64,000 bases of DNA from Thermoleophilia bacterium (lineage in GTDB: Bacteria; Actinomycetota; Thermoleophilia; BMS3ABIN01), in NCBI GenBank assembly GCA_041658605.1, contig JBAZZU010000002.1, forward strand, positions 1,477 through 65,476. The letters run 5' to 3'. Below, piece by piece: positions 5,652 to 17,688 of this stretch. Below the pieces are notes generated by a model, which saw nothing but the letters and a program-made list of their open reading frames with translations, ran no database searches and was not told the DNA's origin. The first letter of the stretch is position 1. The number at the start of each line of letters is the position of its first letter. A program made the translations under genes and the position numbers.

Positions 5652-6418
5652 AACGTTTTCGCGCCACATACATAATCTGGCTGCGCGACCTCAAGCGGCA
5701 TTTTCGGGACCGCGCCCGCATATTCGGCTCGCTGGCCACCCCGATCATCTTTATTTTCATACTGGGGCAGGGGCTGGGTTCCTCCATCAGCGGCGGCATC
5801 CCCGCAGCCGGCGGCGCCCTGGACTACAAGACCTTCATGTTCCCGGGTATCCTGGGGATGACGGTGCTTTTTGCAGGTGTATTCTCGGCCGTCTCCATCG
5901 TCTGGGACCGTGAGTTCGGCTTCCTCAAGGAGATGCTGGTGGCGCCGGTTCCCAGCTGGAGTATCGCCCTCGGCAAAGTGATAAGCGGCGCCACGATAGC
6001 TTCGTTCCAGGGCTGCCTGATGCTTATTCTGGCCCCATTCGCCGGGGTCAGCCTGTCGCCGCTGATGATCGCCAAACTGTTGCCGACGCTCTTTCTGGTC
6101 TCGTTCTCGATGACCGGCATGGGGGTGCTGGTGGCTACGCGGCTTAAGAGCATGCAGGGCTTTCAGATGATAATGAACTTCATCATGATGCCGATGTTCT
6201 TCCTCTCCGGAGCCATGTTCCCGCTGGCAAACGCCCCCGCCTGGATGGACATCCTGTCGAAACTGGACCCGCTCACCTACGGGGTCGACGCGCTGCGCTC
6301 GATAATGCTAACCGATGTACCGTCACGGTATTCGTTCACAACCGACATCGCGTTGATCACGCTGATTTCCGCAGTCATGCTGACCGTTGCCATTTCCACC
6401 TTCAGCCGGCAATCATGA
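5648..6418 (+). CDS. ABC-2 type transporter permease.
   Basis: Six TM segments with the ABC-2 family pattern. The TTG start overlaps the ATPase stop. Confidence 0.75.
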   Translation: MKRFRATYIIWLRDLKRHFRDRARIFGSLATPIIFIFILGQGLGSSISGGIPAAGGALDYKTFMFPGILGMTVLFAGVFSAVSIVWDREFGFLKEMLVAPVPSWSIALGKVISGATIASFQGCLMLILAPFAGVSLSPLMIAKLLPTLFLVSFSMTGMGVLVATRLKSMQGFQMIMNFIMMPMFFLSGAMFPLANAPAWMDILSKLDPLTYGVDALRSIMLTDVPSRYSFTTDIALITLISAVMLTVAISTFSRQS

Positions 6419-6440
6419 CGCAAAAAGAGCGGAGCACCTG

Positions 6441-7955
6441 ATGGGACGGCGCTCCCGCCTGCAGGCGCATCCCCGTTACCGCTGGCTGGTTCTGGTCACG
6501 GTAGCGGGTGGCATGATGATGGCGATCTTAAGCTCTTCCATCGTCAACATCGCTCTGCCGACTATAACCGCCGAGTTCGGCTCCACGATCACGACCATGA
6601 CCTGGGTGGTCACCATTTTCATGATCACGCAGGCGACGCTGATGCCGGTCTGGGGCCGCGCCGGCGATATCTACGGCCATAAGAAAATCTTCATCATCGG
6701 GCTGCTGCTTTTCTCGGCGACGTCGATCCTCTGTGCCGTCGCCTGGAATCCGTACAGCCTGATCGTCGGCCGCGCCCTGCAGGCGATCGGTTCCAGCGCC
6801 CTGGCGCCGATGGCGCTGGCTTTTGTTTTTGAAGCCTTCCCGCAGAAGCATCGTGCCCAGGCGCTGGGAATCATGGGCGGGGTCATCGGCGCCGCGCCTG
6901 TGCTCGGACTGACGGGAGGCGGTCTGCTGGTCGAGGCCTTCGGATGGCGCAGCGTCTTTTTTATATATATCCCGCTTTGCGCCATCATCGTGCCGGCGGC
7001 GCTCTACATACTTAAGGAGTCGCCGCCGAACGAGCAGCGCGGATTCGATATCGCGGGCGCCGTGCTGCTAACCACGGGGCTCTTCAGCGGCCTGCTCGGG
7101 TTGAACCAGGGAAGAAACTGGGGCTGGAGCGATCCGCGCGTGCTCGGATGTTTCGCCCTGATGGCATTGCTGCTGTCGTTCTTTATTTTCTGGGAAAGCA
7201 GGACCCCGCGGCCGATGCTCGACCTTCAGCTGCTCAGGATCAGGTCGCTGGCGGCGGCCAATATCGCGGGCTTTTTCTCGTCGGGCGCCATGTTTGGCTC
7301 ACTTGTGCTGCTGCCGTACTTCTTCCAGTCGGTGCTCGGCGACGAGCCGGCGGCTACCGGCTTCGAGCTGGCGCCGCTGGCGCTGATGTTCGTGCTGGTA
7401 GCGCCCATCGGCGGCAGGCTGACCGCGAGGATCGGTCCGCGAAAGACGGCTTCATGCGGCCTGGCTGTCGCGGCCGCCGGTTTTGTCATCCTGGCAAGCC
7501 AGCTTTCCGCGGAGGCTTCCGCCCTGAGGCTGGGGCTCTCGATCGTGGTGCTGGGCATTGGCCTGGGCTTGACCATGGCACCGCTTACTACGGCCGCCGT
7601 TCATGACGCGCCGCTCGACAAACGCGGAATCGCCTCGTCGTTGCCGAACATGAGCCGCTTCATCGGCGGTTCGTTTGCAATCGCCATTTTCAGCACGGTG
7701 CTTTCTTCGCGTATTAGCTCACACATGCTAGCCGCCGGGATACAGGGCGACGGCATAACGGCAGGTGCGTCTTCAGGGGAAACGGATACCGCCGGCAGCG
7801 CCGCCTTTAAACAGGCGCTGTCGTCATCATTCCGGGATGTTTTCCTGTTCGCGATTTCTTTCATCGTTTTATCTTTTATATTCGTCCAGTTGATCCCCCG
7901 CTTGCGCAACGATATGGATGCCGCCCCGAAAACCATGTCAGACGACACCATGTGA
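6441..7955 (+). CDS. MFS transporter, DHA2 (14-TM) drug/H+ antiporter family.
   Basis: About 14 TM segments with the MFS motif GRxGDxxGxKK. I prefer the ATG at 6441, which has an RBS, over the track start at 6387 that overlaps the permease. Confidence 0.75.
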   Translation: MGRRSRLQAHPRYRWLVLVTVAGGMMMAILSSSIVNIALPTITAEFGSTITTMTWVVTIFMITQATLMPVWGRAGDIYGHKKIFIIGLLLFSATSILCAVAWNPYSLIVGRALQAIGSSALAPMALAFVFEAFPQKHRAQALGIMGGVIGAAPVLGLTGGGLLVEAFGWRSVFFIYIPLCAIIVPAALYILKESPPNEQRGFDIAGAVLLTTGLFSGLLGLNQGRNWGWSDPRVLGCFALMALLLSFFIFWESRTPRPMLDLQLLRIRSLAAANIAGFFSSGAMFGSLVLLPYFFQSVLGDEPAATGFELAPLALMFVLVAPIGGRLTARIGPRKTASCGLAVAAAGFVILASQLSAEASALRLGLSIVVLGIGLGLTMAPLTTAAVHDAPLDKRGIASSLPNMSRFIGGSFAIAIFSTVLSSRISSHMLAAGIQGDGITAGASSGETDTAGSAAFKQALSSSFRDVFLFAISFIVLSFIFVQLIPRLRNDMDAAPKTMSDDTM

Positions 7956-8336
7956 ATACTTCAAAATCGGCTTGTTAGAGCAAGAAGCTGCTTCAGAGGA
8001 CGGGACAGGAATCCTTGCCCGGGATGCCGTGGAGATGACAGCCGAAAAGCCAGGACCACAGTCGCATGCAAGATCAAGAATTGCGGGTTCCTGGCTGCGG
8101 GTAAAGCCAGATTCTGTTTCACTTGCCCGGATTTTCCCTGCGACAGCCTGATGCATTTGGACAAGCGTTACCGGACAAAATACGGCATGAGTATGATCGA
8201 GAATCTCGAGATTATCAGGCAGGTGGGCGTGAGGGATATCTTCAGGCGGGAAAAGCAACGATGGGCCTGTCCGAAATGCGGTTAGACGCTCTGTGTGCAT
8301 GACACAGGCTGCGCCAATTGCGGTCACAATTGGCGC
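7956..8336 (+). pseudogene. Decayed cysteine-rich small-protein gene with multiple CxxC pairs. It has no start codon and carries an internal TAG.
   Basis: The frame is open from directly after the MFS TGA and has no ATG, GTG or TTG. It encodes ...CPGCRG...CKIKNC...FCFTCPDFPC...RYRTKYGMSMIENL...ACPKCG. A TAG at 8283-8285 is followed by 17 more in-frame codons reading LCVHDTGCANCGHNW. Confidence 0.35.
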
Positions 8337-8371
8337 TGAGGCGCCGATCCTGCAGGAAATCCCGTCCGCTA

Positions 8372-9679
8372 TTACCCGAAGATACTGGTCACAACCAGCA
8401 GCAGGCTCAGTATGATCAAACCCGCGGTCGTCAGGCCGGCGACCACGTTATGCCTCCTGCTGTTGGCGTACTCGCCCATGATTCCCTTGTCGTTAATTAT
8501 GATCATCACGAATATCAATATGAGCGGAAGCAGGATTCCGTTCACGTCCTGCGCCAGGACCATGATCTTCAATAGCGGCAGGTTGGGGATGAGCGCGACC
8601 CCGGCGCCGATGACGATTGATGCCGTAAAGAGACCGTGGAAGATGGGCGCTTCCCTAAAGGAGCGGTTAACGCCCGACTCGAAACCGAAGGCCTCACAGA
8701 TTGCGTAGGCCGTGGCCAGGGGCAGGATACATGCGGCCAGCACTGACGCGTTGAGCAGTCCGAAGGCGAAAAGCCTTGATGCCCACTCCCCCGCCAGCGG
8801 GACAAGCGCCTCGGCCGCCTGCTCGGCACTGTCTACATCCCCCCCAGTTGCGTGGATCGTAGCCGCGCAGGAAATGATGATGAACAGCGCCACCAGGTCA
8901 GTGATTACGGCCCCCATTATCACCTCTGCTTTTGTATAGCGGAAATGCTTGATCGAGATGCCTTTATCCACCACGTAGGCCTGGATAAAGAACTGGCCCC
9001 AGGGGGTGATGGTGGTGCCGATTACGGCGATGAAGAGCAGGATATAGCCGGCGTTCATCTCAAACGATGGCACCACCGTGCTGTGCAGCGCCTCGCCCCA
9101 GTCCGGGTGGGCCATGAAACCCGACACAACGTACGCGAGGTAAAAACTGGAGAAGACAAGGAAGGCCCGCTCGGCGATCTTGTAGGAGCCGCGCACGACC
9201 AGCAGCCAGATGAAGACGGCCACGAACGGCACCGTGTAATACTTGGACGCCCCGAATAGCTGAAAGCTCGATGCGATGCCGGAGAACTCGGAGATGGTCG
9301 TTCCCAGGTTCGCCACCAGCATCGCCGCCATCGCGAACAGGGTCAGTTTCAGCCGGAAGCGTTCACGGATCAGCGCCGCCAGCCCCTGGCCGGTCACCAC
9401 TCCCATGCGCGCACCCATCTCCTGGGTGACCGCTAGGCTGAACGTTATCAGCAGCAGCATCCACAACATGCTGTAGCCGAAACGCCCGCCCGCCATGGAA
9501 TATGTGGCGATGCCGCCGGCGTCGTTGTCGGCGTTGGCGGTGATCAGGCCCGGGCCCAGGATTGACAGAAACAGCAGCAGGCGCGTCCTGCCGATGCGCG
9601 GCAGCCGTGGCATGCGGGGGGTGGGGAGACGTGAAAGCCGCCTGCGGCCGATGCGGTGAAATGCTCTGAGGCGGCGCAT
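8372..9679 (-). CDS. NRAMP-family divalent cation transporter, NRMT-like (Mg2+-type signature).
   Basis: GPG...FGY core with 11-12 TM segments. The DPGN motif is replaced by DAGG, and the TM6 MPH motif reads TIH, so the methionine is missing. The gene is downstream of an M-box riboswitch. Confidence 0.8.
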   Translation of the reverse strand: MRRLRAFHRIGRRRLSRLPTPRMPRLPRIGRTRLLLFLSILGPGLITANADNDAGGIATYSMAGGRFGYSMLWMLLLITFSLAVTQEMGARMGVVTGQGLAALIRERFRLKLTLFAMAAMLVANLGTTISEFSGIASSFQLFGASKYYTVPFVAVFIWLLVVRGSYKIAERAFLVFSSFYLAYVVSGFMAHPDWGEALHSTVVPSFEMNAGYILLFIAVIGTTITPWGQFFIQAYVVDKGISIKHFRYTKAEVIMGAVITDLVALFIIISCAATIHATGGDVDSAEQAAEALVPLAGEWASRLFAFGLLNASVLAACILPLATAYAICEAFGFESGVNRSFREAPIFHGLFTASIVIGAGVALIPNLPLLKIMVLAQDVNGILLPLILIFVMIIINDKGIMGEYANSRRHNVVAGLTTAGLIILSLLLVVTSIFG

Positions 9680-9694
9680 GAAGTTAACTTAAGA

Positions 9695-10936
9695 CTAGCC
9701 GAAAATCTTCGGCAGCCTCTTCTTCCAGCTCAGGGGGAGGATTATATCTATGGCGTCATCGACGGTGACTATCCCGCGCAGCACGTTTTCCCCGTCGGTT
9801 ATCGGCAGCGCCAGCAGGTTGTATTTGGCGACCACATGGGCTACTTCGTCCAGCGATGCGTCGGCGCGCATGCTGATGAGGTGATGCTCCATGAATTCCT
9901 CGACCTTCTGGTCGCGTCGGGCCAGGATCAGGTCGCGTAGCGAGAAGACTCCCGCGAGATGGCCGTCGTCATCGACGACGTAGATGTAATAGATGGTCTC
10001 GGCGTCCGGTTCCAGCTCACGCAGGCGGCCGATGGCCTGGCCGGCAGTCATCCCCGGAGGCACTGAAACGAATTCGGTGGTCATTACACCGCCGGCTGTG
10101 TCCTCCTCGTACCTGAGCAGGTGCTGGACGTCCCGCGCCTCTTTCGTCCTCATCGAGGCCAGCAGCGACGCGGCTTTTTCCTCCGGCAGGTCGGCCAGCA
10201 GGTCGGCTGCGTCATCCGGGTCCATGTTGGAGAGGATAGTCGCCGCTTTCTTTTCGTCCATGTCATTGAGCAGGATGGCCTGTAAGTTCGGGTGCATCTC
10301 CTCGACCGTGTCGGCCGCGACCTCGTCCTCGAGCGCTTCGACGACCGCGACCCGCTCTTCAGGAGAAAGCTCGTTGGCGATGTCGGCGATATCGGCCGGA
10401 TGGAGCAAAGCCAGTTTGTCGTGGGTCAGCTGAAGCTTCATGCCGCTGGATTCACCACTGACAGGCTCGACGGTTTTCCAGTCGATCAGGCGCGGTTCCA
10501 CTCTGCGGGAAAACCGTTCTGCCAGTCTCGAGAGTCCGAGCCGGCGCATGATGGCGCCGCCCGATATGTCCACACCCACGACCCTCAGGGAACCGTTAGC
10601 GCGCGCAAGCTGCAGGTCGTTGACACGGATGAGCTTGTGGCCCTCGGTATCGACTATCTGCTTGTCGAGGATGTCTCCAGCCAGGAAGATCTCGCCCTCG
10701 CCGGGTTCGACCGCCTCAAGCTGGTCGAGCGGCAGGCGCAGCAGCGTCTGGGATTCCTCAAAATTGCGCACCAGCTCCCAGGGCAGCAGTATTTTCTTGC
10801 GCCCCTGTTTTACCACCAGCTTTGTGGCCGAGGGATACTTGCGCTTGATGGTCACCACTATGTCGTCGAGCACGCCCACAGTGCGGGATCTCGAGTCCTT
10901 GACCTGCTGTCCCAGGATCTTGCTGAGAAAAAACAC
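9695..10936 (-). CDS. MgtE N-terminal domain plus CBS-pair protein without a membrane domain. An N-terminal PRC-barrel-like region is present.
   Basis: MgtE_N helical repeats followed by two CBS domains, with no TM segment. The GTG start at about 10936 has a GGAGGT RBS, which is why I trim the track start at 11068. Confidence 0.7.
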   Translation of the reverse strand: MFFLSKILGQQVKDSRSRTVGVLDDIVVTIKRKYPSATKLVVKQGRKKILLPWELVRNFEESQTLLRLPLDQLEAVEPGEGEIFLAGDILDKQIVDTEGHKLIRVNDLQLARANGSLRVVGVDISGGAIMRRLGLSRLAERFSRRVEPRLIDWKTVEPVSGESSGMKLQLTHDKLALLHPADIADIANELSPEERVAVVEALEDEVAADTVEEMHPNLQAILLNDMDEKKAATILSNMDPDDAADLLADLPEEKAASLLASMRTKEARDVQHLLRYEEDTAGGVMTTEFVSVPPGMTAGQAIGRLRELEPDAETIYYIYVVDDDGHLAGVFSLRDLILARRDQKVEEFMEHHLISMRADASLDEVAHVVAKYNLLALPITDGENVLRGIVTVDDAIDIILPLSWKKRLPKIFG

Positions 10937-10956
10937 GGTTATTACCTCCGGCCAAT

Positions 10957-11240
10957 AAAAAAACCTTCCCCAAAGGGAAGGTTTGCATGCGCACGAAAAC
11001 GTCACTGTCCGGCGCTTATGGATTTGCAGCCTTATCCAAAGCACTACGGCAGTACCGTCTACAGTCACATGGCCTTCCCCAACTCATACAAGCTTTGGCA
11101 CAGCGCATCGTAGAGATTTCTCTCAGCCGTTTCGGGCAAAACCTTATGCCGGTAATGCCTGTTCTACCCGTTGGGGTCTTTGGACCTTTCCGGGCAACGG
11201 CCTGTGTCCGCGCTGGAGCCTCACCTAACGAGGATTAGCT
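10957..11240 (-). ncRNA. M-box (ykoK-leader) Mg2+ riboswitch with its terminator expression platform.
   Basis: The minus strand reads CGUUAGGUGAGGCUCC...UUGCCCGGAAAGGUCCAAAGACCCCAACGGGU...CAUAAGGUU...GUGCCAAAGCUUG, which matches the conserved M-box segments. The terminator CCUUCCC-UUUG-GGGAAGG plus U7 at 10985-10957 lies about 20 nt before the gene start. Confidence 0.8.
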
Positions 11241-11347: not shown

Positions 11348-12064
11348 ATGATGGATAATGGCGAAGTGCCCGCACGCATACTGGTTGTTGAAGACGATGA
11401 GAGCATCTCCGAGGCGATTGTTTTCAGCCTTGGAAAGAAGGGCTTCCGCTGCCTGGCCGCGGCCGATGGTCTGGAGGGTCTGCGGCTGCTGCGGCGTGAA
11501 AAACCCGACCTTATGATTCTGGATCTCATGCTTCCCGGCCTTGATGGCTGGAAGCTGTGCGAGACGGTCCGGCAGGAGGGATACAGCCTTCCCATAATCG
11601 TGGTGAGCGCCCGCACAAGCGAATTCGACAAGGTGCAAGTCCTGTCGCTCGGGGCGGATGATTATCTGACAAAGCCTTTCGGCATGGGCGAGCTTGTGGC
11701 CAGGGTGCAGGCCAACCTGCGGCGCGCTTCGCGTTCGGAGGTTGCGCCTCAAGGCATCGTCGAGGCTGGTCCGCTGGTTGTTGACCCCGACAGAAAGGAA
11801 GCCTTCAGCAGAGATGAACCGCTGGAGCTGACCTCCAGGGAATTCGCGGTGCTTTATCTATTGGCGAAGTCGGCCCCGCTTGTGATTTCCAGGGAAGATA
11901 TTTACAAGGCTGTCTGGGGGTACGAGATGATGCACGGTGACCGTTCTGTGGATGTCTTTGTCAGAAGAATAAGGAAGAAGATAGCCGCTGGTATCCAAGG
12001 GTATACTTTCGTACAGACCCACTATGGTTTCGGTTACAAGTTCGAGGCAAGGAAGACAGACTGA
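11348..12064 (+). CDS. OmpR/PhoB-family response regulator.
   Basis: Receiver domain (the D at LMILDLMLPG, KPF) followed by a winged-helix domain containing GYKF. Confidence 0.9.
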   Translation: MMDNGEVPARILVVEDDESISEAIVFSLGKKGFRCLAAADGLEGLRLLRREKPDLMILDLMLPGLDGWKLCETVRQEGYSLPIIVVSARTSEFDKVQVLSLGADDYLTKPFGMGELVARVQANLRRASRSEVAPQGIVEAGPLVVDPDRKEAFSRDEPLELTSREFAVLYLLAKSAPLVISREDIYKAVWGYEMMHGDRSVDVFVRRIRKKIAAGIQGYTFVQTHYGFGYKFEARKTD

Positions 12065-12136
12065 AGCTTCAGTCTGAGCGGCATCAGGGGCAGAGTTCGA
12101 TGATTTCTGCCCATCTGACAGGATCGCTGCGTCGGC

Positions 12137-13390
<1,254 letters not shown>

Positions 13391-13417
13391 AACGGCGCTG
13401 CTGGCAACCTGAAGCCG

Positions 13418-14113
13418 CTATTCGCCAAAACGCTTGTCGGGTTCGTTGTCAAAATACCTTCCATCGAGTTTGCCGGTAACGAGAAAATCTATACGCGCCC
13501 CCATATCCACGACCTGGTCGGCTATGCGCTCGATATAGCGGCTTGCCAGCGCGATATGAGTAGCCCATTCGGTTGATTCAACCGCCTCCAATTCTCCCTT
13601 GGGGTGTAAAAGCCGCGTAAGGATCTCCTTGTACATCTCATCGATGGGCTCATCGATCTCGACCAGGGAATTAGCCAGCCGCGCATCGCGGTCCGCGAAA
13701 GCCTTGATGCCCTGGCGCAATACTTCGAGGGCCTGCGCCGACATCTTGCCCAGTAGCTCCAGATAGGGCTCCGCCGCCTCGGTGCGCTCCAGGCGTTTGG
13801 CTATCTTGGCTATGTTGACAGCCAGGTCACCGACGCGCTCCAGGTGCAGGCTCACCAGCAGGCAGGTGTGGAGCAGCCGCAGGTCACGCGCCACCGGCTG
13901 TTGCTGTGCCTGCAGGGCCAGGCAGTTGCCTTCGATCCTGAGCGTCAGCTCGTTGATGTCATCATCCCCGGCGATAACGGAGTTCGCCAGCGAGCGGTCA
14001 CTTTTCAGCAGCGCCTGCGTCGAGAGGTCGACGGCCTCGACTACCAGGCTCGCTTCGCGCAGGATCTCCTCGTTAAGCTGTTTCAGCCCTTCATGAAAAG
14101 ACTGTCTGGTCAT
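13418..14113 (-). CDS. phoU: Phosphate signalling complex protein PhoU.
   Basis: Duplicated PhoU domain, 231 aa. Confidence 0.9.
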   Translation of the reverse strand: MTRQSFHEGLKQLNEEILREASLVVEAVDLSTQALLKSDRSLANSVIAGDDDINELTLRIEGNCLALQAQQQPVARDLRLLHTCLLVSLHLERVGDLAVNIAKIAKRLERTEAAEPYLELLGKMSAQALEVLRQGIKAFADRDARLANSLVEIDEPIDEMYKEILTRLLHPKGELEAVESTEWATHIALASRYIERIADQVVDMGARIDFLVTGKLDGRYFDNEPDKRFGE

Positions 14114-14115
14114 GG

Positions 14116-14898
14116 TTAACCGAACCTTCCCGTGATGTAATTTTCAGTTTCCTTGCGGTCTGGCATTGTGAAGATCTTGCTTGTAGGTCCATATTCCACG
14201 AGCCGCCCCGGCTCCCCTGTCTCCGTGATCAGCATAAAGCCTGTAAACTGCGAGACCCTGGCGGCCTGTTGCATGTTGTGGGTCACTATAACAATGGTGT
14301 AATTCTCCTTGAGTCTGTCCATCGTGTCCTCGATCTGTTGTGTCGCCACAGGGTCCAGGGCAGAACATGGTTCGTCCATCAGGATAACTTCGGGTTCCAC
14401 CGCCAGCGTCCGGGCGATGCAGAGCCGCTGCTGCTGGCCGCCGGAAAGCTCCAGAGCGGAATGCTTGAGCTTATTCTTTACTTCCTTCCAGAGAGCCGCC
14501 TGCCTGAGAGCTTTCTCAACTATGCCGTCCAGTTCGTCATTGCTCCTTCTGCCCTGGATGCGTGGTCCGTAAGCCACATTATCGTAAATTGATTTGGGGA
14601 ACGGATTCGGCTTCTGGAATATCTCCCCGACACGGGAACGCAGCTCGACGACATCGACATCGGCCGCATAGATATCCTTTCCGTCCAGCAGAACGCTGCC
14701 CTCGACCCTGGTTTTCCCCATAACTTCGTGCATGCGATTCATCAATCTGAGCACCGTGGACTTGCCGCAGCCGGAAGGGCCGATCAGTGCCGTGACCTGG
14801 TTAGGCTCGATATCGAGGTTGATGTCCTCAAGAGCCTTAAAACTGCCGTAGTAGAAATTCACCCCATGAAGCTGCGCCTTTTTTTGAAGCTCTGCCGT
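14116..14898 (-). CDS. pstB: Phosphate ABC transporter ATP-binding protein PstB.
   Basis: Walker [10 protein letters not shown], signature LSGGQQQRL and the PstB-specific N-terminus. The likely start is the GTG overlapping the pstA stop; the track start extends into pstA. Confidence 0.9.
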
Positions 14899-14900
14899 TT

Positions 14901-15758
14901 TTACCACCTTTTCTTTCTCCGAAAACGGGCACGAATTATCGCAGCCGTTAGCGTAAACATCAGGACCAGTAACAAAAGTACCAGTGCCGTACCCCATTTT
15001 ATCTCATCGGGCATGCCTGGCACCTGTGTGGAAATCGTGTAGAGATGGTATGGCAGGGCCATCGCCTGGCTGAATGGTGAGTCAGGCAGCGTGGGCAGGA
15101 AGAAGGCGGCGACGGTGAACATTATCGCGGCTGTCTCTCCGGCGGCGCGTCCCACCGCCAGGACCGTACCTGTGATTATGCCGGGGACGGCGTTTGGGAG
15201 GACCACGCGCCGTATCGTCTGCCAGCGTGTAGCGCCCAGCGCCAGTGAAGCCTGGCGGAAAGACTGGGGCACGGCGAGCAGCGCCTCTTCGGCCGCGGTG
15301 ATGACAACCGGCAGCACCAGCAGCCCCAGCGTCAGCGAGCCCGAGAGCAGCGAGGTCCCGAATTGCATCAGCAGCACGAACAGGCCCAGGCCGAACAGTC
15401 CATAGACAACCGATGGTACGCCGGCCATGTTGGCGATCGCCAGCCTGATCGCCCGGGTGAGCCGGCCCTGGGTGGCGTACTCGGTCAGGTATACGGCCGC
15501 CAGCGTCCCAACGGGAACCGCGAAGACTATGGTGCCGAGAACCAGGTAGAAGGTACCGACGATTGCCGGGAAGATGCCACCGGCCTTCATGCCGTTCCTT
15601 GGCATTTCGGTCAGGAATTCCAGCGTGATGGCCGGTGCACCCTTGATGACAAGAAAAATGATGATGGCGATGACCGGCGCCACGGCGATGGCGGTCAGCA
15701 GCGCCATAAGGCCGTGCGCCGCTTTTTCATAAACAAGCTGCTTGCGGTGGCCGGCCAT
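14901..15758 (-). CDS. pstA: Phosphate ABC transporter permease PstA.
   Basis: Six TM segments with an EAA-like motif, in operon position. Confidence 0.85.
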
Positions 15759-15759
15759 T

Positions 15760-16689
15760 CTATTCCCCTTCCTGGAAGCGTCGAAGGATCAGGTCGGCGA
15801 AAAGGTTTACTGCAAAGGTGATGATGAAAAGCACCAGGCCGACAGCAAAGAGCGCAAAGTAATGAGGGCTCTGGAAGACGGTCTCGCCCATCTCCTGGGC
15901 GATGGTGCCGGTAAGCGTGCGGACAGGCTTCAGGACCGAATCGACCGAAGTGGGCATGACGGCGGCGTTACCGGTCACCATCAGAACCACCATCGTCTCA
16001 CCTATCGCCCGGCCGATCCCCAGCATGATCGATGCCGAGATGCCTGACATCGCAGCTGGGACGACCACGCGTCTGGTAGTCTGCCAGCGGGTTGCTCCCA
16101 TCGCCAGTGATCCCTCGCGGTAGGAGCGCGGTACGGCGTTGATCGCATCCTCGGCGATCGACACGATCGTGGGCAGCGCCATGAAGGCCAGCATGATACC
16201 ACCGGTCAGTGCTGTCAGCCCCGTGTTCAGGTGTAGCAGTCCCTGCAGATATGGCGCCAGCAGCGTGAGGCCGATGAACGCCAGCACCACAGAGGGGATG
16301 GCCGCTACTATCTCCATCAGCGGTTTCAGGATCTCCTTGAGCCAGCCCGGCGCGATTTCGGCGATATAGACGGCCGTCCCGATTCCCATCGGTATGGCGA
16401 TGATGATCGCTATTGCAGTTACCAGCATGGAGCCAAGTACCAGCGGCAGGATGCCGAAGACCGGCGGTTCGGAGATCGGATACCAGTTGCGGCCGGTGAG
16501 GAAATCGATTGGCGAATAACTGCCGAACAGCAGGAAGGCGTCTCTCAGAAGATACGCGAAGATAAGGACCACCACGGCGATTGACAGGATGCCGCAGGCA
16601 AGGATGATCTTGCCGATGAGGCCTTCCTTAAATTTTTGTGCGGTCTTCATTCTGTCTGGTCCTGCTCCTGTTTCTATATGCCGAAACAT
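15760..16689 (-). CDS. pstC: Phosphate ABC transporter permease PstC.
   Basis: Six TM segments with the PstC family pattern. Confidence 0.85.
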   Translation of the reverse strand: MFRHIETGAGPDRMKTAQKFKEGLIGKIILACGILSIAVVVLIFAYLLRDAFLLFGSYSPIDFLTGRNWYPISEPPVFGILPLVLGSMLVTAIAIIIAIPMGIGTAVYIAEIAPGWLKEILKPLMEIVAAIPSVVLAFIGLTLLAPYLQGLLHLNTGLTALTGGIMLAFMALPTIVSIAEDAINAVPRSYREGSLAMGATRWQTTRRVVVPAAMSGISASIMLGIGRAIGETMVVLMVTGNAAVMPTSVDSVLKPVRTLTGTIAQEMGETVFQSPHYFALFAVGLVLFIITFAVNLFADLILRRFQEGE

Positions 16690-16755
16690 CCCAGGCGCCG
16701 TGTGGCCCGGGATGTTTCATTTGCTATTCCGCTTAAACAGCGCCAACTGACGCTG

Positions 16756-17688
16756 CTATTTTTTCAGCGGCACGAACTCGAGATCCTCGACGACCTTCTG
16801 TCCCGCGGGGCTCTTGATCCAGGCGAGGTAATCCTGCACCGTCTGCGAAGCGCCCTGCTTGGTGTACATGTACAGCGGCCTAGATACCGGATAACTGCCG
16901 TCCTGTACCGAGGCGACCGTGGCTGTGACCGCGGCCGAAGCGTCGTCCTTTTTGACCTTCAGCGACTTGAGGTCGCCCTTGACATATCCCAGCCCGACAT
17001 AACCGATGCCCCTGGGGTTCTGTTTGACCTCGTCTACGATAGCCTGCGATGAGGGCAGCAGCAGGGCGCTCGACGCGTACTCGACCTTGCCGTCGCTCTT
17101 GCCCTTGTTGAGGATATGCTCCTTGAAGAAAACGTGTGTTCCCGAGTTGCTCTCACGGGAGAGGATGACGATCTGCCCGGGGGTGCCGCCGACGTCCTTC
17201 CAGTCGGTGACCTTGCCGGAGAAGATGTCGGCCAGCTGGTCGATGCTCAGCTCGCTGATCCCGTTATCCATATTTACGACGATGGCGATGCCGTCCAGGG
17301 CCACCTTGTTCTCGACCACCTCGACGCCATTGGCTTTGGCGTCATCCTTTTCTTTCTGCTTCATCTCGCGGGACGCGTCGGCGATGTCGGTCGTGCCGTT
17401 GATGATGGCGGTGATGCCGGTGCCGGAGCCGCCGCCGGTCACGGCGATATTGACCTGGGGGTTATCCTTCATGTAGTCCTCGGCCCACATCTGGGCGAGG
17501 TTCACCATCGTGTCTGAACCCTTGACCTGGATGGAGCCGCTCTTGCCGCCACCCGCAGATGAATTCTGATTGCCACAGCCGGCAACAGCGAACATGAAGG
17601 CAGCCATCAGGCCGGCCGCCAGAAGTGCGAAGAAGCCTTTCGTAAATCGTTTTGCTGTCATTTCTTTGAGTCTCCTTTTATTGATCAT
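16756..17688 (-). CDS. pstS: Phosphate-binding lipoprotein PstS.
   Basis: VAGC lipobox and the PBP fold motifs SGSGTG/TDIAD. Confidence 0.85.
   Translation of the reverse strand: MINKRRLKEMTAKRFTKGFFALLAAGLMAAFMFAVAGCGNQNSSAGGGKSGSIQVKGSDTMVNLAQMWAEDYMKDNPQVNIAVTGGGSGTGITAIINGTTDIADASREMKQKEKDDAKANGVEVVENKVALDGIAIVVNMDNGISELSIDQLADIFSGKVTDWKDVGGTPGQIVILSRESNSGTHVFFKEHILNKGKSDGKVEYASSALLLPSSQAIVDEVKQNPRGIGYVGLGYVKGDLKSLKVKKDDASAAVTATVASVQDGSYPVSRPLYMYTKQGASQTVQDYLAWIKSPAGQKVVEDLEFVPLKK

What the first reader, a model, noticed from the sequence alone, without database searches (positions are those of the whole stretch)
8372..10936. The riboswitch controls a split system: a soluble MgtE-N/CBS protein plus an NRAMP relative with an NRMT (Mg2+-type) signature
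The first gene after the M-box encodes the cytoplasmic Mg2+-sensing modules of MgtE: a PRC-barrel-like segment, the MgtE_N domain and two CBS domains. It has no membrane pore domain.

The next gene is an NRAMP-family transporter. Its TM1 DPGN motif reads DAGG. Its TM6 MPH motif reads TIH, so the metal-site methionine is missing. Loss of that Met together with M-box linkage is the hallmark reported for NRAMP-related Mg2+ transporters (NRMT) in clostridial and Eggerthella-type genomes.

Having the MgtE sensing half encoded separately and fused in operon with an NRMT is not something I recognise as a described arrangement. It suggests a modular sensor plus transporter.
Basis: partly seen in the sequence, partly recalled or inferred. 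Interest (0 to 1): 0.6.

Follow-up and report, generated by a model that had tools for sequence, protein, structure and literature searches.

The report
Known riboswitch-controlled NRMT magnesium operon
This is a magnesium-sensing riboswitch in front of two genes, a pore-less copy of the MgtE channel's cytoplasmic sensor and an NRAMP-related magnesium transporter; the pairing is real and widespread, but it was published in 2014, so this is an ordinary new example whose sensor protein still has no tested function.

Summary
On the minus strand an M-box riboswitch (11239-11071, 139.5 bits) and a terminator hairpin precede two genes. Gene A (10936-9695, 413 aa) has a PRC barrel, a second PRC-like domain, MgtE_N and two CBS domains, with no membrane segment. 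Gene B (9679-8372, 435 aa) starts 15 nt later and is an NRAMP-family protein.

Gene B is an NRMT. It is 49% identical to the solved Mg2+ transporter EleNRMT (E 7e-119, against about 1e-22 to 1e-25 for MntH proteins). It carries the published NRMT site signature DxxG/TxxT.

One detail is wrong. The TM6 motif reads TTITPW, not "TIH", which lies in TM7.

The novelty claim fails. Shin et al. 2014 (PLoS Genet, PMC4072509) already described nrmT genes preceded by a gene for the MgtE cytoplasmic domain. They reported that the pairs are often co-transcribed under M-boxes, and they proposed feedback regulation.

New increments found here:
- The pairing holds in 69 of 72 species-level loci across several phyla.
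- An M-box is present in only 34 of 74 loci.
- Gene A matches the whole cytoplasmic part of a long-form, PRC-bearing MgtE.
- One apparently genuine fusion protein exists.

Verdict: a new member of a known kind, of low interest.

The parts
11071..11239 (-). M-box (Mg2+) riboswitch aptamer
   Evidence: Rfam RF00380 at 139.5 bits (gathering score 44), E 2.1e-31, covering the full model 1-169.
11073..11080 (-). 3' strand of aptamer helix P1 (GGGGAAGG), the candidate anti-terminator strand
   Evidence: It is complementary over 8 bp (duplex -14.4 kcal/mol) to CCUUCCCU in the 5' arm of the terminator. The octamer occurs only 3 times in the window, and 2 of those are in this leader.
10954..10984 (-). 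Intrinsic-terminator-like hairpin plus U-run (expression platform)
   Evidence: Stem of 10 pairs, AAACCTTCCC-TTTG-GGGAAGGTTT, followed by TTTTATTGGC. It forms in the MFE and centroid folds. A similar hairpin follows the aptamer in 25 of 34 M-box-positive related loci.
9695..10936 (-). Gene A: soluble 413-aa PRC / PRC-like / MgtE_N / CBS-CBS protein (pore-less MgtE cytoplasmic module)
   Evidence: Pfam domains. No TM segment. Identical to the NCBI MAG protein P0001. The AF2 model has mean pLDDT 79. The top Foldseek hit is the MgtE cytosolic domain 2yvy, E 5e-22.
10727..10936 (-). Gene A residues 1-70: PRC-barrel domain
   Evidence: PF05239 at 23.1 bits on its own and 34.4 bits in the full protein, against a cut-off of 21.2. 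All-beta in the AF2 model with pLDDT 90-96.
10427..10693 (-). Gene A residues 82-170: second beta domain, weakly PRC-like
   Evidence: PF05239 at 18.1 bits, E 0.0028, which is below the cut-off. hhalign against domain 1 gives E 0.011, aligned in register. tblastn detects this part of gene A more often than any other N-terminal part: 68 of 72 loci.
10100..10405 (-). Gene A residues 178-279: MgtE_N helical domain
   Evidence: PF03448 at 100.7 bits. It holds D209, D241 and D245, which align with TtMgtE E59 (site Mg7), D91 (Mg4) and D95 (Mg6) (site assignments from PMC5882242).
9740..10093 (-). Gene A residues 282-399: CBS pair
   Evidence: PF00571, two stretches, 72.1 bits. D394 and D397 align with TtMgtE D247 (Mg4) and D250 (Mg5). 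N373 replaces D226 (Mg5) and is invariant in the family alignment A2.
9698..9739 (-). Gene A residues 400-413: basic C-terminal tail LPLSWKKRLPKIFG, in place of the acidic MgtE plug helix
   Evidence: P401, W404, K405, K406 and R407 are invariant in alignment A2. The tail is conserved in Actinomycetota and some Chloroflexota but differs in CPR and Negativicutes. AF2 pLDDT is below 50 here.
8372..9679 (-). Gene B: NRMT (NRAMP-related Mg2+ transporter), 435 aa
   Evidence: Pfam Nramp at 324.5 bits. EleNRMT 7qia at E 7.4e-119, with 49% identity over 403 ungapped residues. Identical to the NCBI MAG protein P0121.
9512..9523 (-). Gene B TM1 metal-site motif D53-A-G-G56
   Evidence: It aligns to EleNRMT D55 and G58. 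This is the DxxG half of the NRMT signature (PMC8806188).
8999..9016 (-). Gene B TM6 metal-site motif T222-T-I-T225-P-W227
   Evidence: It aligns to EleNRMT T224 and A227 and to DraNramp A-x-x-M-P-H. This is the TxxT half of the NRMT signature. T222-Q229 are invariant in alignment A1.

Best explanation
This is a two-gene Mg2+-uptake operon of an uncultured Thermoleophilia (Actinomycetota) bacterium, switched off by Mg2+ through an M-box riboswitch.

**Riboswitch (inferred mechanism).** At high cytoplasmic Mg2+ the aptamer compacts and holds its P1 3' strand (GGGGAAGG). The downstream CCUUCCCU then pairs with the second GGGGAAGG, and the terminator forms before gene A. At low Mg2+ the P1 strand is free to pair with CCUUCCCU as an anti-terminator, and both genes are transcribed.

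**Gene B (inferred from a close homologue).** It is an NRMT, an NRAMP-fold importer with an enlarged, all-hard-ligand site (D53, G56, T222, T225, Q377). By homology with EleNRMT it should take up partly hydrated Mg2+, and also Mn2+, without proton coupling. Both TM6b histidines are replaced, by W227 and I232.

**Gene A (speculative role).** It is the complete cytoplasmic part of a long-form MgtE channel (PRC, PRC-like, MgtE_N and CBS pair) without the plug helix and pore. The most likely role, at roughly 45%, is a trans-acting Mg2+ or Mg-ATP sensor that docks on the NRMT and throttles it when cytoplasmic Mg2+ is high. That would add post-translational feedback on top of the riboswitch.

**What is shown and what is inferred.** Shown: the riboswitch, the domain content, NRMT membership by sequence, and the conserved gene pairing. 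Inferred: the direction of the switch, the substrate, and the regulatory role of gene A.
For: **Riboswitch**
- The M-box scores 139.5 bits.
- A terminator hairpin with a U-run follows it.
- Two copies of GGGGAAGG compete for one CCUUCCCU.
- Terminator-like hairpins follow the aptamer in 25 of 34 related M-box loci.

**Gene B**
- EleNRMT matches at E 7e-119 with 49% identity. D55, G58, T224, Q379 and E133 are all conserved, and A227 is replaced by T.
- PMC8806188 gives DxxG-TxxA/T as the NRMT signature. It shows that EleNRMT transports Mg2+ and Mn2+ but not Ca2+, without H+ coupling.

**Gene A**
- Pfam domains, no TM segment, an AF2 model and Foldseek matches to MgtE cytosolic domains.
- Mg4, Mg6 and Mg7 ligand positions of TtMgtE are kept as D241/D394, D245 and D209.
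- It is 41% identical over residues 1-399 to the N-terminal 427 residues of a pore-bearing 645-aa MgtE.

**Pairing**
- A gene A homologue lies directly upstream of the NRMT on the same strand in 69 of 72 species-level loci. These come from Actinomycetota, Chloroflexota, Armatimonadota, Patescibacteria and Negativicutes.
- The median distance from the gene A stop to the first aligned NRMT residue is 26 nt.
- One uninterrupted fusion ORF, P0242 (967 aa), contains both complete modules.
- Shin et al. 2014 describe the same operon type and show Mg2+ transport by two clostridial NrmT proteins.
Against: - No experiment exists for this locus.
- Shin et al. found that clostridial NrmT proteins complement Mg2+ auxotrophy without the MgtE-like gene. 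Co-expressing the A. capsulatum pair did not improve rescue. Gene A is therefore not needed for transport, and its effect is unknown.
- The A. capsulatum NrmT behaved as a Mn2+ transporter despite its MgtE-like neighbour, so membership of this clade alone does not prove Mg2+ specificity.
- The window protein has Thr where EleNRMT has Ala227. The effect of that change is untested.
- Gene A has Asn at the TtMgtE D226 position. D226N, combined with D250A, is the mutation used to disable site Mg5. The Mg2 and Mg3 plug-helix ligands are absent.
- Thermodynamic folding of the leader shows only the terminator, not the anti-terminator.
- The fusion evidence rests on one singleton metagenomic scaffold.
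Confidence: 0.8

Rival explanations
1. Gene A is not a gate. It is a metal chaperone, a delivery or buffering protein, or an assembly or stability factor for the NRMT. It would take Mg2+ from, or hand it to, the transporter's cytoplasmic vestibule, or help the transporter fold and insert.
For: Shin et al. name a chaperone role as their alternative. EleNRMT was unstable on its own in detergent and needed 11 consensus mutations, which is compatible with a missing partner. Tight synteny in 69 of 72 loci fits any obligate partner role. Several acidic Mg2+ ligand positions are retained.
Against: The MgtE_N plus CBS module is known as a Mg2+/ATP-dependent conformational switch, not as a carrier (PMC5882242). 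NrmT proteins work heterologously without it. Mg2+ is present at millimolar levels in the cytoplasm, so a chaperone has no obvious purpose.
Confidence: 0.15
2. Gene A acts independently of the NRMT, for example as a cytoplasmic Mg2+/nucleotide sensor with another target. Under this reading the two genes are neighbours only because both are needed at low Mg2+.
For: There is no direct interaction evidence. The co-expression test was negative. PRC and CBS modules occur in many unrelated regulators.
Against: The pairing persists in phyla where the M-box is absent, namely Patescibacteria, Armatimonadota and Chloroflexota. The M-box is found in only 34 of 74 loci, against pairing in 69 of 72. Shared riboswitch control therefore cannot explain the linkage. 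Intergenic gaps are very short or the genes overlap. One fusion protein exists.
Confidence: 0.1
3. The transporter is mainly a Mn2+ (or other transition-metal) importer, as reported for the A. capsulatum NrmT, and gene A senses that metal.
For: EleNRMT transports Mn2+ as well as Mg2+. The A. capsulatum NrmT rescued a Mn2+-transport mutant. The window protein has TxxT rather than the TxxA of EleNRMT.
Against: The operon is controlled by a high-scoring M-box. Shin et al. use the M-box as the marker of the Mg2+-specific subset. T222, whose equivalent T224 is critical for Mg2+ but less so for Mn2+ in EleNRMT, is present. There is no soft (Met) ligand.
Confidence: 0.1

Closest known systems
M-box-regulated 'mgtE-like fragment + nrmT' operons (Shin et al. 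2014, PLoS Genet, PMC4072509; e.g. C. acetobutylicum Ca_c0685 and A. capsulatum ACP2976/ACP2977)
   Same: The gene order is the same: riboswitch, then a gene for the MgtE N-terminal cytoplasmic domain, then an Nramp-related transporter. The transporter clade is the same. The same regulatory hypothesis for the accessory gene was already stated there.
   Different: The host is an uncultured Thermoleophilia MAG. Gene A is a single gene here, whereas it is split in two in Ca_c0685. [quoted passage not shown] A search of the paper library for 'PRC-barrel' together with 'MgtE' found nothing.
EleNRMT, Eggerthella lenta NRAMP-related Mg2+ transporter (PDB 7QIA/7QIC/7QJI/7QJJ; PMC8806188)
   Same: 49% identity over 403 ungapped residues. 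Identical D, G, T, Q and E at the positions of D55, G58, T224, Q379 and E133. The NDAGGI and GTTIxPW motifs are shared. The TM6b histidines are absent.
   Different: Thr225 sits where EleNRMT has Ala227. This is the 'T' option of the published TxxA/T signature. The EleNRMT study does not discuss the MgtE-like partner or riboswitch control ('riboswitch' occurs 0 times, and MgtE is mentioned only as an unrelated channel).
MgtE Mg2+ channel cytoplasmic domain (T. thermophilus 2YVY/2YVX) and long-form PRC-bearing MgtE (e.g. Dictyobacter arantiisoli, 645 aa)
   Same: The MgtE_N plus CBS pair is 40% identical to TtMgtE over 230 columns. The fold match has E 5e-22. Ligand positions for Mg4, Mg6 and Mg7 are kept. 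Gene A is 41% identical over residues 1-399 to the long-form MgtE, including both N-terminal beta domains.
   Different: There is no plug helix and no PF01769 pore. Gene A scores 202 bits on TIGR00400, below its 232.75 cut-off. D226 is replaced by an invariant Asn. The protein ends in a basic tail instead of the acidic plug helix with E258 and D259.
MntH / canonical bacterial NRAMP Mn2+ transporters (DraNramp, ScaDMT, EcoDMT)
   Same: The same LeuT-type Nramp fold family (PF01566) and a conserved TM1 Asp.
   Different: Only 80-92 bits to MntH structures, against 400 bits to EleNRMT. It scores 126 bits on NCBIfam MntH, whose cut-off is 430. DPGN becomes DAGG and A-x-x-M-P-H becomes T-x-x-T-P-W.

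Membership tests
NRMT (NRAMP-related Mg2+ transporters) | TM1 site motif DxxG (Asn of DPGN replaced by Gly) | tested here: met
   D53-A-G-G56 aligns to EleNRMT D55...G58. The signature is taken from PMC8806188.
NRMT (NRAMP-related Mg2+ transporters) | TM6 site motif TxxA/T (Ala replaced by Thr, Met replaced by Ala or Thr) | tested here: met
T222-T-I-T225 aligns to EleNRMT T224...A227.
NRMT (NRAMP-related Mg2+ transporters) | Clusters with characterised NRMTs rather than with MntH clades | tested here: met
   400.6 bits (E 7e-119) to EleNRMT, against at most 92 bits to any MntH/NRAMP structure. This rests on the bit-score gap. No full phylogeny with CabNRMT was built.
NRMT (NRAMP-related Mg2+ transporters) | Loss of the proton-pathway residues (the two TM6b histidines) | tested here: met
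   W227 and I232 stand at the positions of DraNramp MPH...H in the alignment. PMC8806188 reports the same loss in EleNRMT.
NRMT (NRAMP-related Mg2+ transporters) | Transports Mg2+ | not testable with these tools
   This needs proteoliposome assays or complementation. One clade member (A. capsulatum) behaved as a Mn2+ transporter.
M-box riboswitch (RF00380) | Aptamer sequence and structure reach the Rfam gathering score | tested here: met
   139.5 bits against 44, over the full-length model.
M-box riboswitch (RF00380) | Expression platform: an intrinsic terminator whose 5' arm can alternatively pair with the aptamer's P1 3' strand | tested here: met
   Terminator at 10984-10961 plus a U-run. 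An 8-bp alternative pairing at -14.4 kcal/mol. Mg2+ dependence itself cannot be tested here.
MgtE-like accessory gene of nrmT operons (Shin et al. 2014) | Homologous to the MgtE N-terminal cytoplasmic domain, lacks the pore, and is encoded immediately upstream of nrmT | tested here: met
   The intergenic gap is 15 nt. The same pairing is found in 69 of 72 related loci.
MgtE Mg2+ channel (TIGR00400 / PF01769) | C-terminal five-helix pore domain (PF01769) and plug helix | tested here: not met
   No PF01769 hit. 202 bits on TIGR00400, below the 232.75 cut-off, matching model positions 23-251 only. No hydrophobic segment.
MntH (Mn2+ NRAMP) | DPGN / A-x-x-M-P-H metal site and a score above the NCBIfam NF001923 cut-off | tested here: not met
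   126 bits against a cut-off of 430. The Met, Asn and His positions are all replaced.

The most novel reading that the evidence does not exclude
The most novel reading not excluded is that gene A is a detachable regulatory subunit. It would be the whole cytoplasmic sensor of a long-form, PRC-bearing MgtE channel, re-used in trans to gate a structurally unrelated LeuT-fold transporter (NRMT) in response to cytoplasmic Mg2+ or Mg-ATP. The PRC barrels or the basic C-terminal tail would serve as the docking element. That would be a natural case of one Mg2+-sensing module controlling two different pore types (MgtE in cis, NRMT in trans). It would also explain why purified EleNRMT is unstable and shows uncoupled, ungated transport. 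The core idea of feedback regulation was already proposed in 2014. The link to long-form PRC-MgtE, the near-universal synteny independent of the riboswitch, and the fusion protein are the new supports.
Probability: 0.4. Interest if true: 0.5.

Novelty: new member of a known kind. Interest (0 to 1): 0.2.

Why it matters
As a discovery it matters little. The operon type, the NRMT signature and the sensor-plus-transporter hypothesis are all in the literature (PMC4072509, PMC8806188).

What remains open is the function of the MgtE-like partner, which nobody has tested beyond one negative co-expression experiment. This survey sharpens that question in four ways:
- The pairing is nearly obligatory across at least five phyla and does not depend on the riboswitch.
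- The partner is a full long-form MgtE cytoplasmic module that includes PRC barrels.
- Most Mg2+ ligand positions are retained, while the plug helix is replaced.
- At least one fusion protein may exist.

Together these make a physical NRMT-partner complex a reasonable target for structural or biochemical work on how Mg2+ uptake is throttled.

Tried and rejected
1. **Cryptic TM domain in gene A with another start.** Rejected. The longest ORF (from GTG 11068) overlaps the aptamer and terminator and still has no hydrophobic segment. The 10936 start gives the N-terminus that is conserved across phyla.
Rejected by the alignments.
3. **Fusion proteins as evidence of interaction.** P0243 (835 aa) and P0244 (834 aa) were rejected as probable long-read indel artefacts. 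Their middle or C-terminal parts do not align to either module, which suggests out-of-frame stretches. Neighbouring ABC-transporter genes on the P0243 contig are fragmented. Only P0242 looks genuine: both modules are complete, the scaffold has no Ns, and the linker has a plug-helix-like acidic helix plus hydrophobic helices. It is a singleton.
4. **Internal duplication of the two N-terminal beta domains.** hhalign gives E 0.011 and probability 3.7%. The alignment is in register but weak, so the second domain is called only 'PRC-like'.
5. **NJ tree of pore-less against pore-bearing PRC-MgtE forms.** The two forms interleave and there is no bootstrap support. It is inconclusive on whether the pore was lost once.
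6. **Thermodynamic folding to show the anti-terminator.** Only the terminator appears. The anti-terminator rests on complementarity alone.
7. **Literature search for 'PRC-barrel' with 'MgtE', and for later work on NrmT, MgtE and M-box together.** Nothing was found beyond Shin et al. 2014.
8. **Link between the TM6 Thr/Ala choice and M-box presence.** Not testable with this locus set, because one of the two scan patterns was TTITPWGQ, which biases the set towards Thr.
Full report
**1. What is in the sequence**

All features lie on the minus strand.

- Rfam finds one family in the whole 64-kb window. It is an M-box (RF00380) at 11239-11071, at 139.5 bits against a gathering score of 44, with the full model matched.
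- About 85 nt downstream is a terminator-like hairpin, AAACCUUCCC-UUUG-GGGAAGGUUU, followed by a U-run (10984-10954). It forms in both the MFE and centroid folds.
- The octamer GGGGAAGG occurs three times in the window, and two copies are in this leader. One is the 3' strand of aptamer helix P1 (11080-11073). The other is the terminator's 3' arm (10971-10964).
- Both copies can pair with CCUUCCCU (10981-10974). The P1 alternative has 8 bp and -14.4 kcal/mol.
- This is the standard M-box OFF design. Mg2+-induced compaction holds the P1 strand, so the terminator forms. At low Mg2+ the P1 strand acts as an anti-terminator.
- The direction of switching is inferred from the known family. Folding alone shows only the terminator.
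- In related loci a terminator-like hairpin follows the aptamer in 25 of 34 cases, often with the same CCUUCC arm.

**2. Gene A (10936-9695, 413 aa)**

- The longest ORF starts at GTG 11068, but that start lies inside the leader. A GGAGG ribosome-binding site precedes the GTG at 10936.
- That start gives a product identical to an NCBI-annotated protein of a Thermoleophilia MAG (P0001). It also gives an N-terminus (MFFLSK.LG..V.D) conserved in homologues from Actinomycetota, Chloroflexota, Armatimonadota, CPR and Negativicutes.
- Pfam finds PRC (34.4 bits), MgtE_N (100.7) and two CBS stretches (72.1), but no PF01769 pore.
- TIGR00400 (mgtE) matches only model positions 23-251, at 202 bits. This is below its 232.75 cut-off.
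- The highest 19-residue hydropathy is 1.33, so there is no TM helix under either start.
- An AlphaFold2 model built from 45 aligned homologues has mean pLDDT 79. It shows:
  - a beta barrel at residues 1-70 (pLDDT 90-96);
  - a second beta domain at 82-170;
  - the helical MgtE_N domain at 172-274;
  - a CBS pair at about 290-400;
  - a disordered tail at 400-413.
- The best Foldseek matches are MgtE cytosolic domains (2yvy, E 5e-22).
- The second beta domain is only weakly PRC-like. Pfam gives 18.1 bits and E 0.0028. hhalign against domain 1 gives E 0.011.

**3. Mg2+ sites of gene A**

I used the HMMER alignment to T. thermophilus MgtE and the site assignments in PMC5882242. The mapping is and the conservation in alignment A2.

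| TtMgtE site | TtMgtE residue(s) | Gene A residue(s) | Status in alignment A2 |
|---|---|---|---|
| Mg4 | D91 / D247 | D241 / D394 | both invariant |
| Mg6 | D95 | D245 | invariant |
| Mg7 | E59 | D209 | nearly invariant |
| Mg5 | D226 / D250 | N373 / D397 | Asn invariant, Asp nearly invariant |
| Mg2, Mg3 | E258, D259 (plug helix) | none | plug helix absent |

- D226N, combined with D250A, is the mutation used experimentally to disable Mg5. Gene A carries that Asn naturally.
- Gene A ends in a basic tail, LPLSWKKRLPKIFG, where MgtE has the acidic plug helix.
- Gene A therefore keeps most inter-domain Mg2+ ligands but has lost the elements that couple the sensor to the MgtE pore.

**4. Gene B (9679-8372, 435 aa)**

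- It starts 15 nt after the stop of gene A and matches Pfam Nramp at 324.5 bits.
- Its best solved relative is EleNRMT (7qia), at 400.6 bits and E 7e-119. All MntH and NRAMP structures score 92 bits or less.
- Identity to EleNRMT is 49% over 403 ungapped residues.
- The NCBIfam MntH model gives 126 bits against a cut-off of 430.
- The functional residues of EleNRMT map as follows:
  - D55 to D53;
  - G58 to G56;
  - T224 to T222;
  - A227 to T225;
  - Q379 to Q377;
  - E133 to E131.
- PMC8806188 defines the NRMT site signature as DxxG-TxxA/T. The window protein reads DAGG and TTIT.
- Both TM6b histidines of canonical NRAMPs are replaced, by W227 and I232. EleNRMT shows the same loss, and its transport is not proton-coupled.
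The true TM6 motif is TTITPW. The Met is indeed missing.

**5. Is the arrangement new?**

No.

- Shin et al. 2014 (PLoS Genet, PMC4072509) named the NrmT clade. They showed Mg2+ transport by two C. acetobutylicum members.
- They also reported that many of these fragments are M-box regulated and co-transcribed with nrmT (their Fig. S5, 'mgtE-nramp operons').
- They speculated that the fragment provides cytoplasmic feedback regulation or chaperone activity.
- They found the fragment is not needed for complementation. Co-expression of the A. capsulatum pair had no added effect, and that NrmT behaved as a Mn2+ transporter.
- The later structural paper on EleNRMT does not discuss the partner.
- A library search for later work combining NrmT, MgtE and M-box returned only the 2014 paper.

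**6. Comparative survey done here**

- I scanned one genome per GTDB species with an alignment of gene B homologues. At least 543 relatives were found and 80 loci were kept.
- Of 72 loci with at least 1.4 kb of upstream sequence, 69 have the gene A CBS part upstream on the same strand. The PRC-like second domain is found in 68, MgtE_N in 64, and the more divergent first PRC barrel in 30 by tblastn.
- The median distance from the gene A stop to the first aligned NRMT residue is 26 nt, and the genes often overlap.
- Three loci (L032, L057, L061) have no gene A within 4.5 kb.
- Three loci have two tandem NRMT paralogues. In L023 and L026 the extra copy lies between gene A and the matched NRMT, and in L021 it lies downstream of it.
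- An M-box is present in 34 of 74 loci screened:
  - It occurs in nearly all Thermoleophilia and other Actinomycetota loci and in all Negativicutes loci.
  - It is absent from the loci labelled Patescibacteria/CPR, Armatimonadota or Chloroflexota.
  - One further M-box locus, L079, is labelled Gammaproteobacteria.
- The protein pairing is thus much more conserved than the riboswitch. This argues that the linkage reflects a functional partnership rather than shared regulation.

**7. Origin of gene A**

- A search with the concatenated A and B sequences returned many pore-bearing MgtE proteins of 600-650 aa. They come from Ktedonobacteria, other Chloroflexota, Armatimonadota and Actinomycetota, and they carry PRC, MgtE_N, CBS and PF01769.
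- Gene A is 41% identical over residues 1-399 to the first 427 residues of the 645-aa MgtE of Dictyobacter arantiisoli (domains confirmed).
- Gene A is therefore the whole cytoplasmic part of a long-form PRC-MgtE without the pore. The PRC barrels are not an NRMT-specific addition.
- An NJ tree does not separate pore-less from pore-bearing forms and is inconclusive.

**8. Fusion proteins**

The same search returned six proteins that combine MgtE_N or CBS with Nramp.

- P0243 and P0244 look like artefacts of noisy long-read assemblies. Large internal stretches align to neither module. Neighbouring genes on the P0243 contig are fragmented.
- P0242 (967 aa, locus L084) looks genuine:
  - it is an uninterrupted ORF in a scaffold without Ns;
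  - the gene A module aligns over residues 12-399 and the NRMT module over its full length (DAGGI, GTTIAPW);
  - its 127-residue linker begins with a plug-helix-like acidic stretch (EEHQEDLQIAG);
  - the linker contains two or three hydrophobic helices, with peak hydropathy 2.07.
- P0242 is a single sequence from one metagenome, so it is suggestive only.

**9. Mechanism and likelihoods**

- Identity as an M-box-controlled nrmT operon: about 0.9.
- Mg2+ as the physiological substrate: about 0.75. This rests on the M-box, T222 and the EleNRMT precedent, but the clade includes a Mn2+ transporter.
- Gene A as a trans-acting Mg2+/nucleotide-dependent regulator of the NRMT: about 0.45.
- Gene A as a chaperone or stabiliser: about 0.15.
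- Gene A with an independent function: about 0.1.

**10. Verdict**

- The NRMT, M-box and pore-less MgtE reading is correct.
- The claim of an undescribed arrangement is wrong.
- This is a new, uncharacterised member of a known operon type.
- The increments found here are the PRC-bearing long-form MgtE ancestry, riboswitch-independent synteny across phyla, the natural Asn at the D226 position, the basic tail that replaces the plug helix, and one possible fusion. They refine an existing open question rather than open a new one.
- Interest: 0.2.

Noticed in passing
L065 2492-2669 and 2810-2981; L066 2497-2674 and 2807-2977: In two Pelosinus genomes, two complete M-box aptamers (each 161-166 bits) lie in tandem upstream of the same gene A-NRMT operon. 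This could give a steeper or two-step Mg2+ response.
   Followed up: no
P0254-P0360 (e.g. P0337, Dictyobacter arantiisoli, 645 aa): There is a large subfamily of full-length MgtE channels with one or two N-terminal PRC-barrel domains ahead of MgtE_N, CBS and the pore. The paper library holds no text that mentions both PRC-barrel and MgtE, so the role of these barrels in MgtE appears not to have been discussed.
   Followed up: partly
L084 1601-4504 (protein P0242, 967 aa): A single ORF encodes PRC, MgtE_N, CBS, a plug-helix-like acidic helix, two or three hydrophobic helices and a complete NRMT. It looks like a genuine fusion but is a singleton metagenomic scaffold, and a transposase gene lies just upstream.
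   Followed up: partly
L082 3001-5508 (P0243); L083 3001-5505 (P0244): These apparent gene A-NRMT fusions have internal parts that align to neither module. Neighbouring genes on the P0243 contig are fragmented. They are probably indel artefacts of long-read metagenome assemblies rather than real fusions.
   Followed up: yes
L021 4501-5769 and 5883-7079; L023 3261-4496 and 4501-5778; L026 3243-4463 and 4501-5745: Some Actinomycetota and Thermoleophilia genomes have two tandem NRMT paralogues (53-60% identical to gene B) behind one M-box and one gene A.
   Followed up: partly
window 11348-17688: Directly upstream of the M-box lies a phosphate-regulon cluster. It holds an OmpR-type response regulator (11348-12064, +), a histidine kinase (12137-13390, -), PhoU (13418-14113, -) and pstB/pstA/pstC/pstS-like ORFs (14116-17688, -). 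The domains come from the identical contig L001. Phosphate and Mg2+ uptake genes are neighbours here, which may be chance.
   Followed up: no
window 6387-7955 (+): An MFS transporter gene (522 aa as the longest ORF, called as 504 aa on L001) converges on the 3' end of gene B. A palindromic GC-rich stretch lies between the two genes (around 8300-8350), with no clear U-run terminator.
   Followed up: no
L011, L017, L042: Three Actinomycetota loci have the gene A-NRMT pair (about 52% identical to gene A) but no M-box at the gathering threshold, although 450 to 3200 nt of upstream sequence is available. Close relatives such as L073 have one. The riboswitch may have been lost recently.
   Followed up: no
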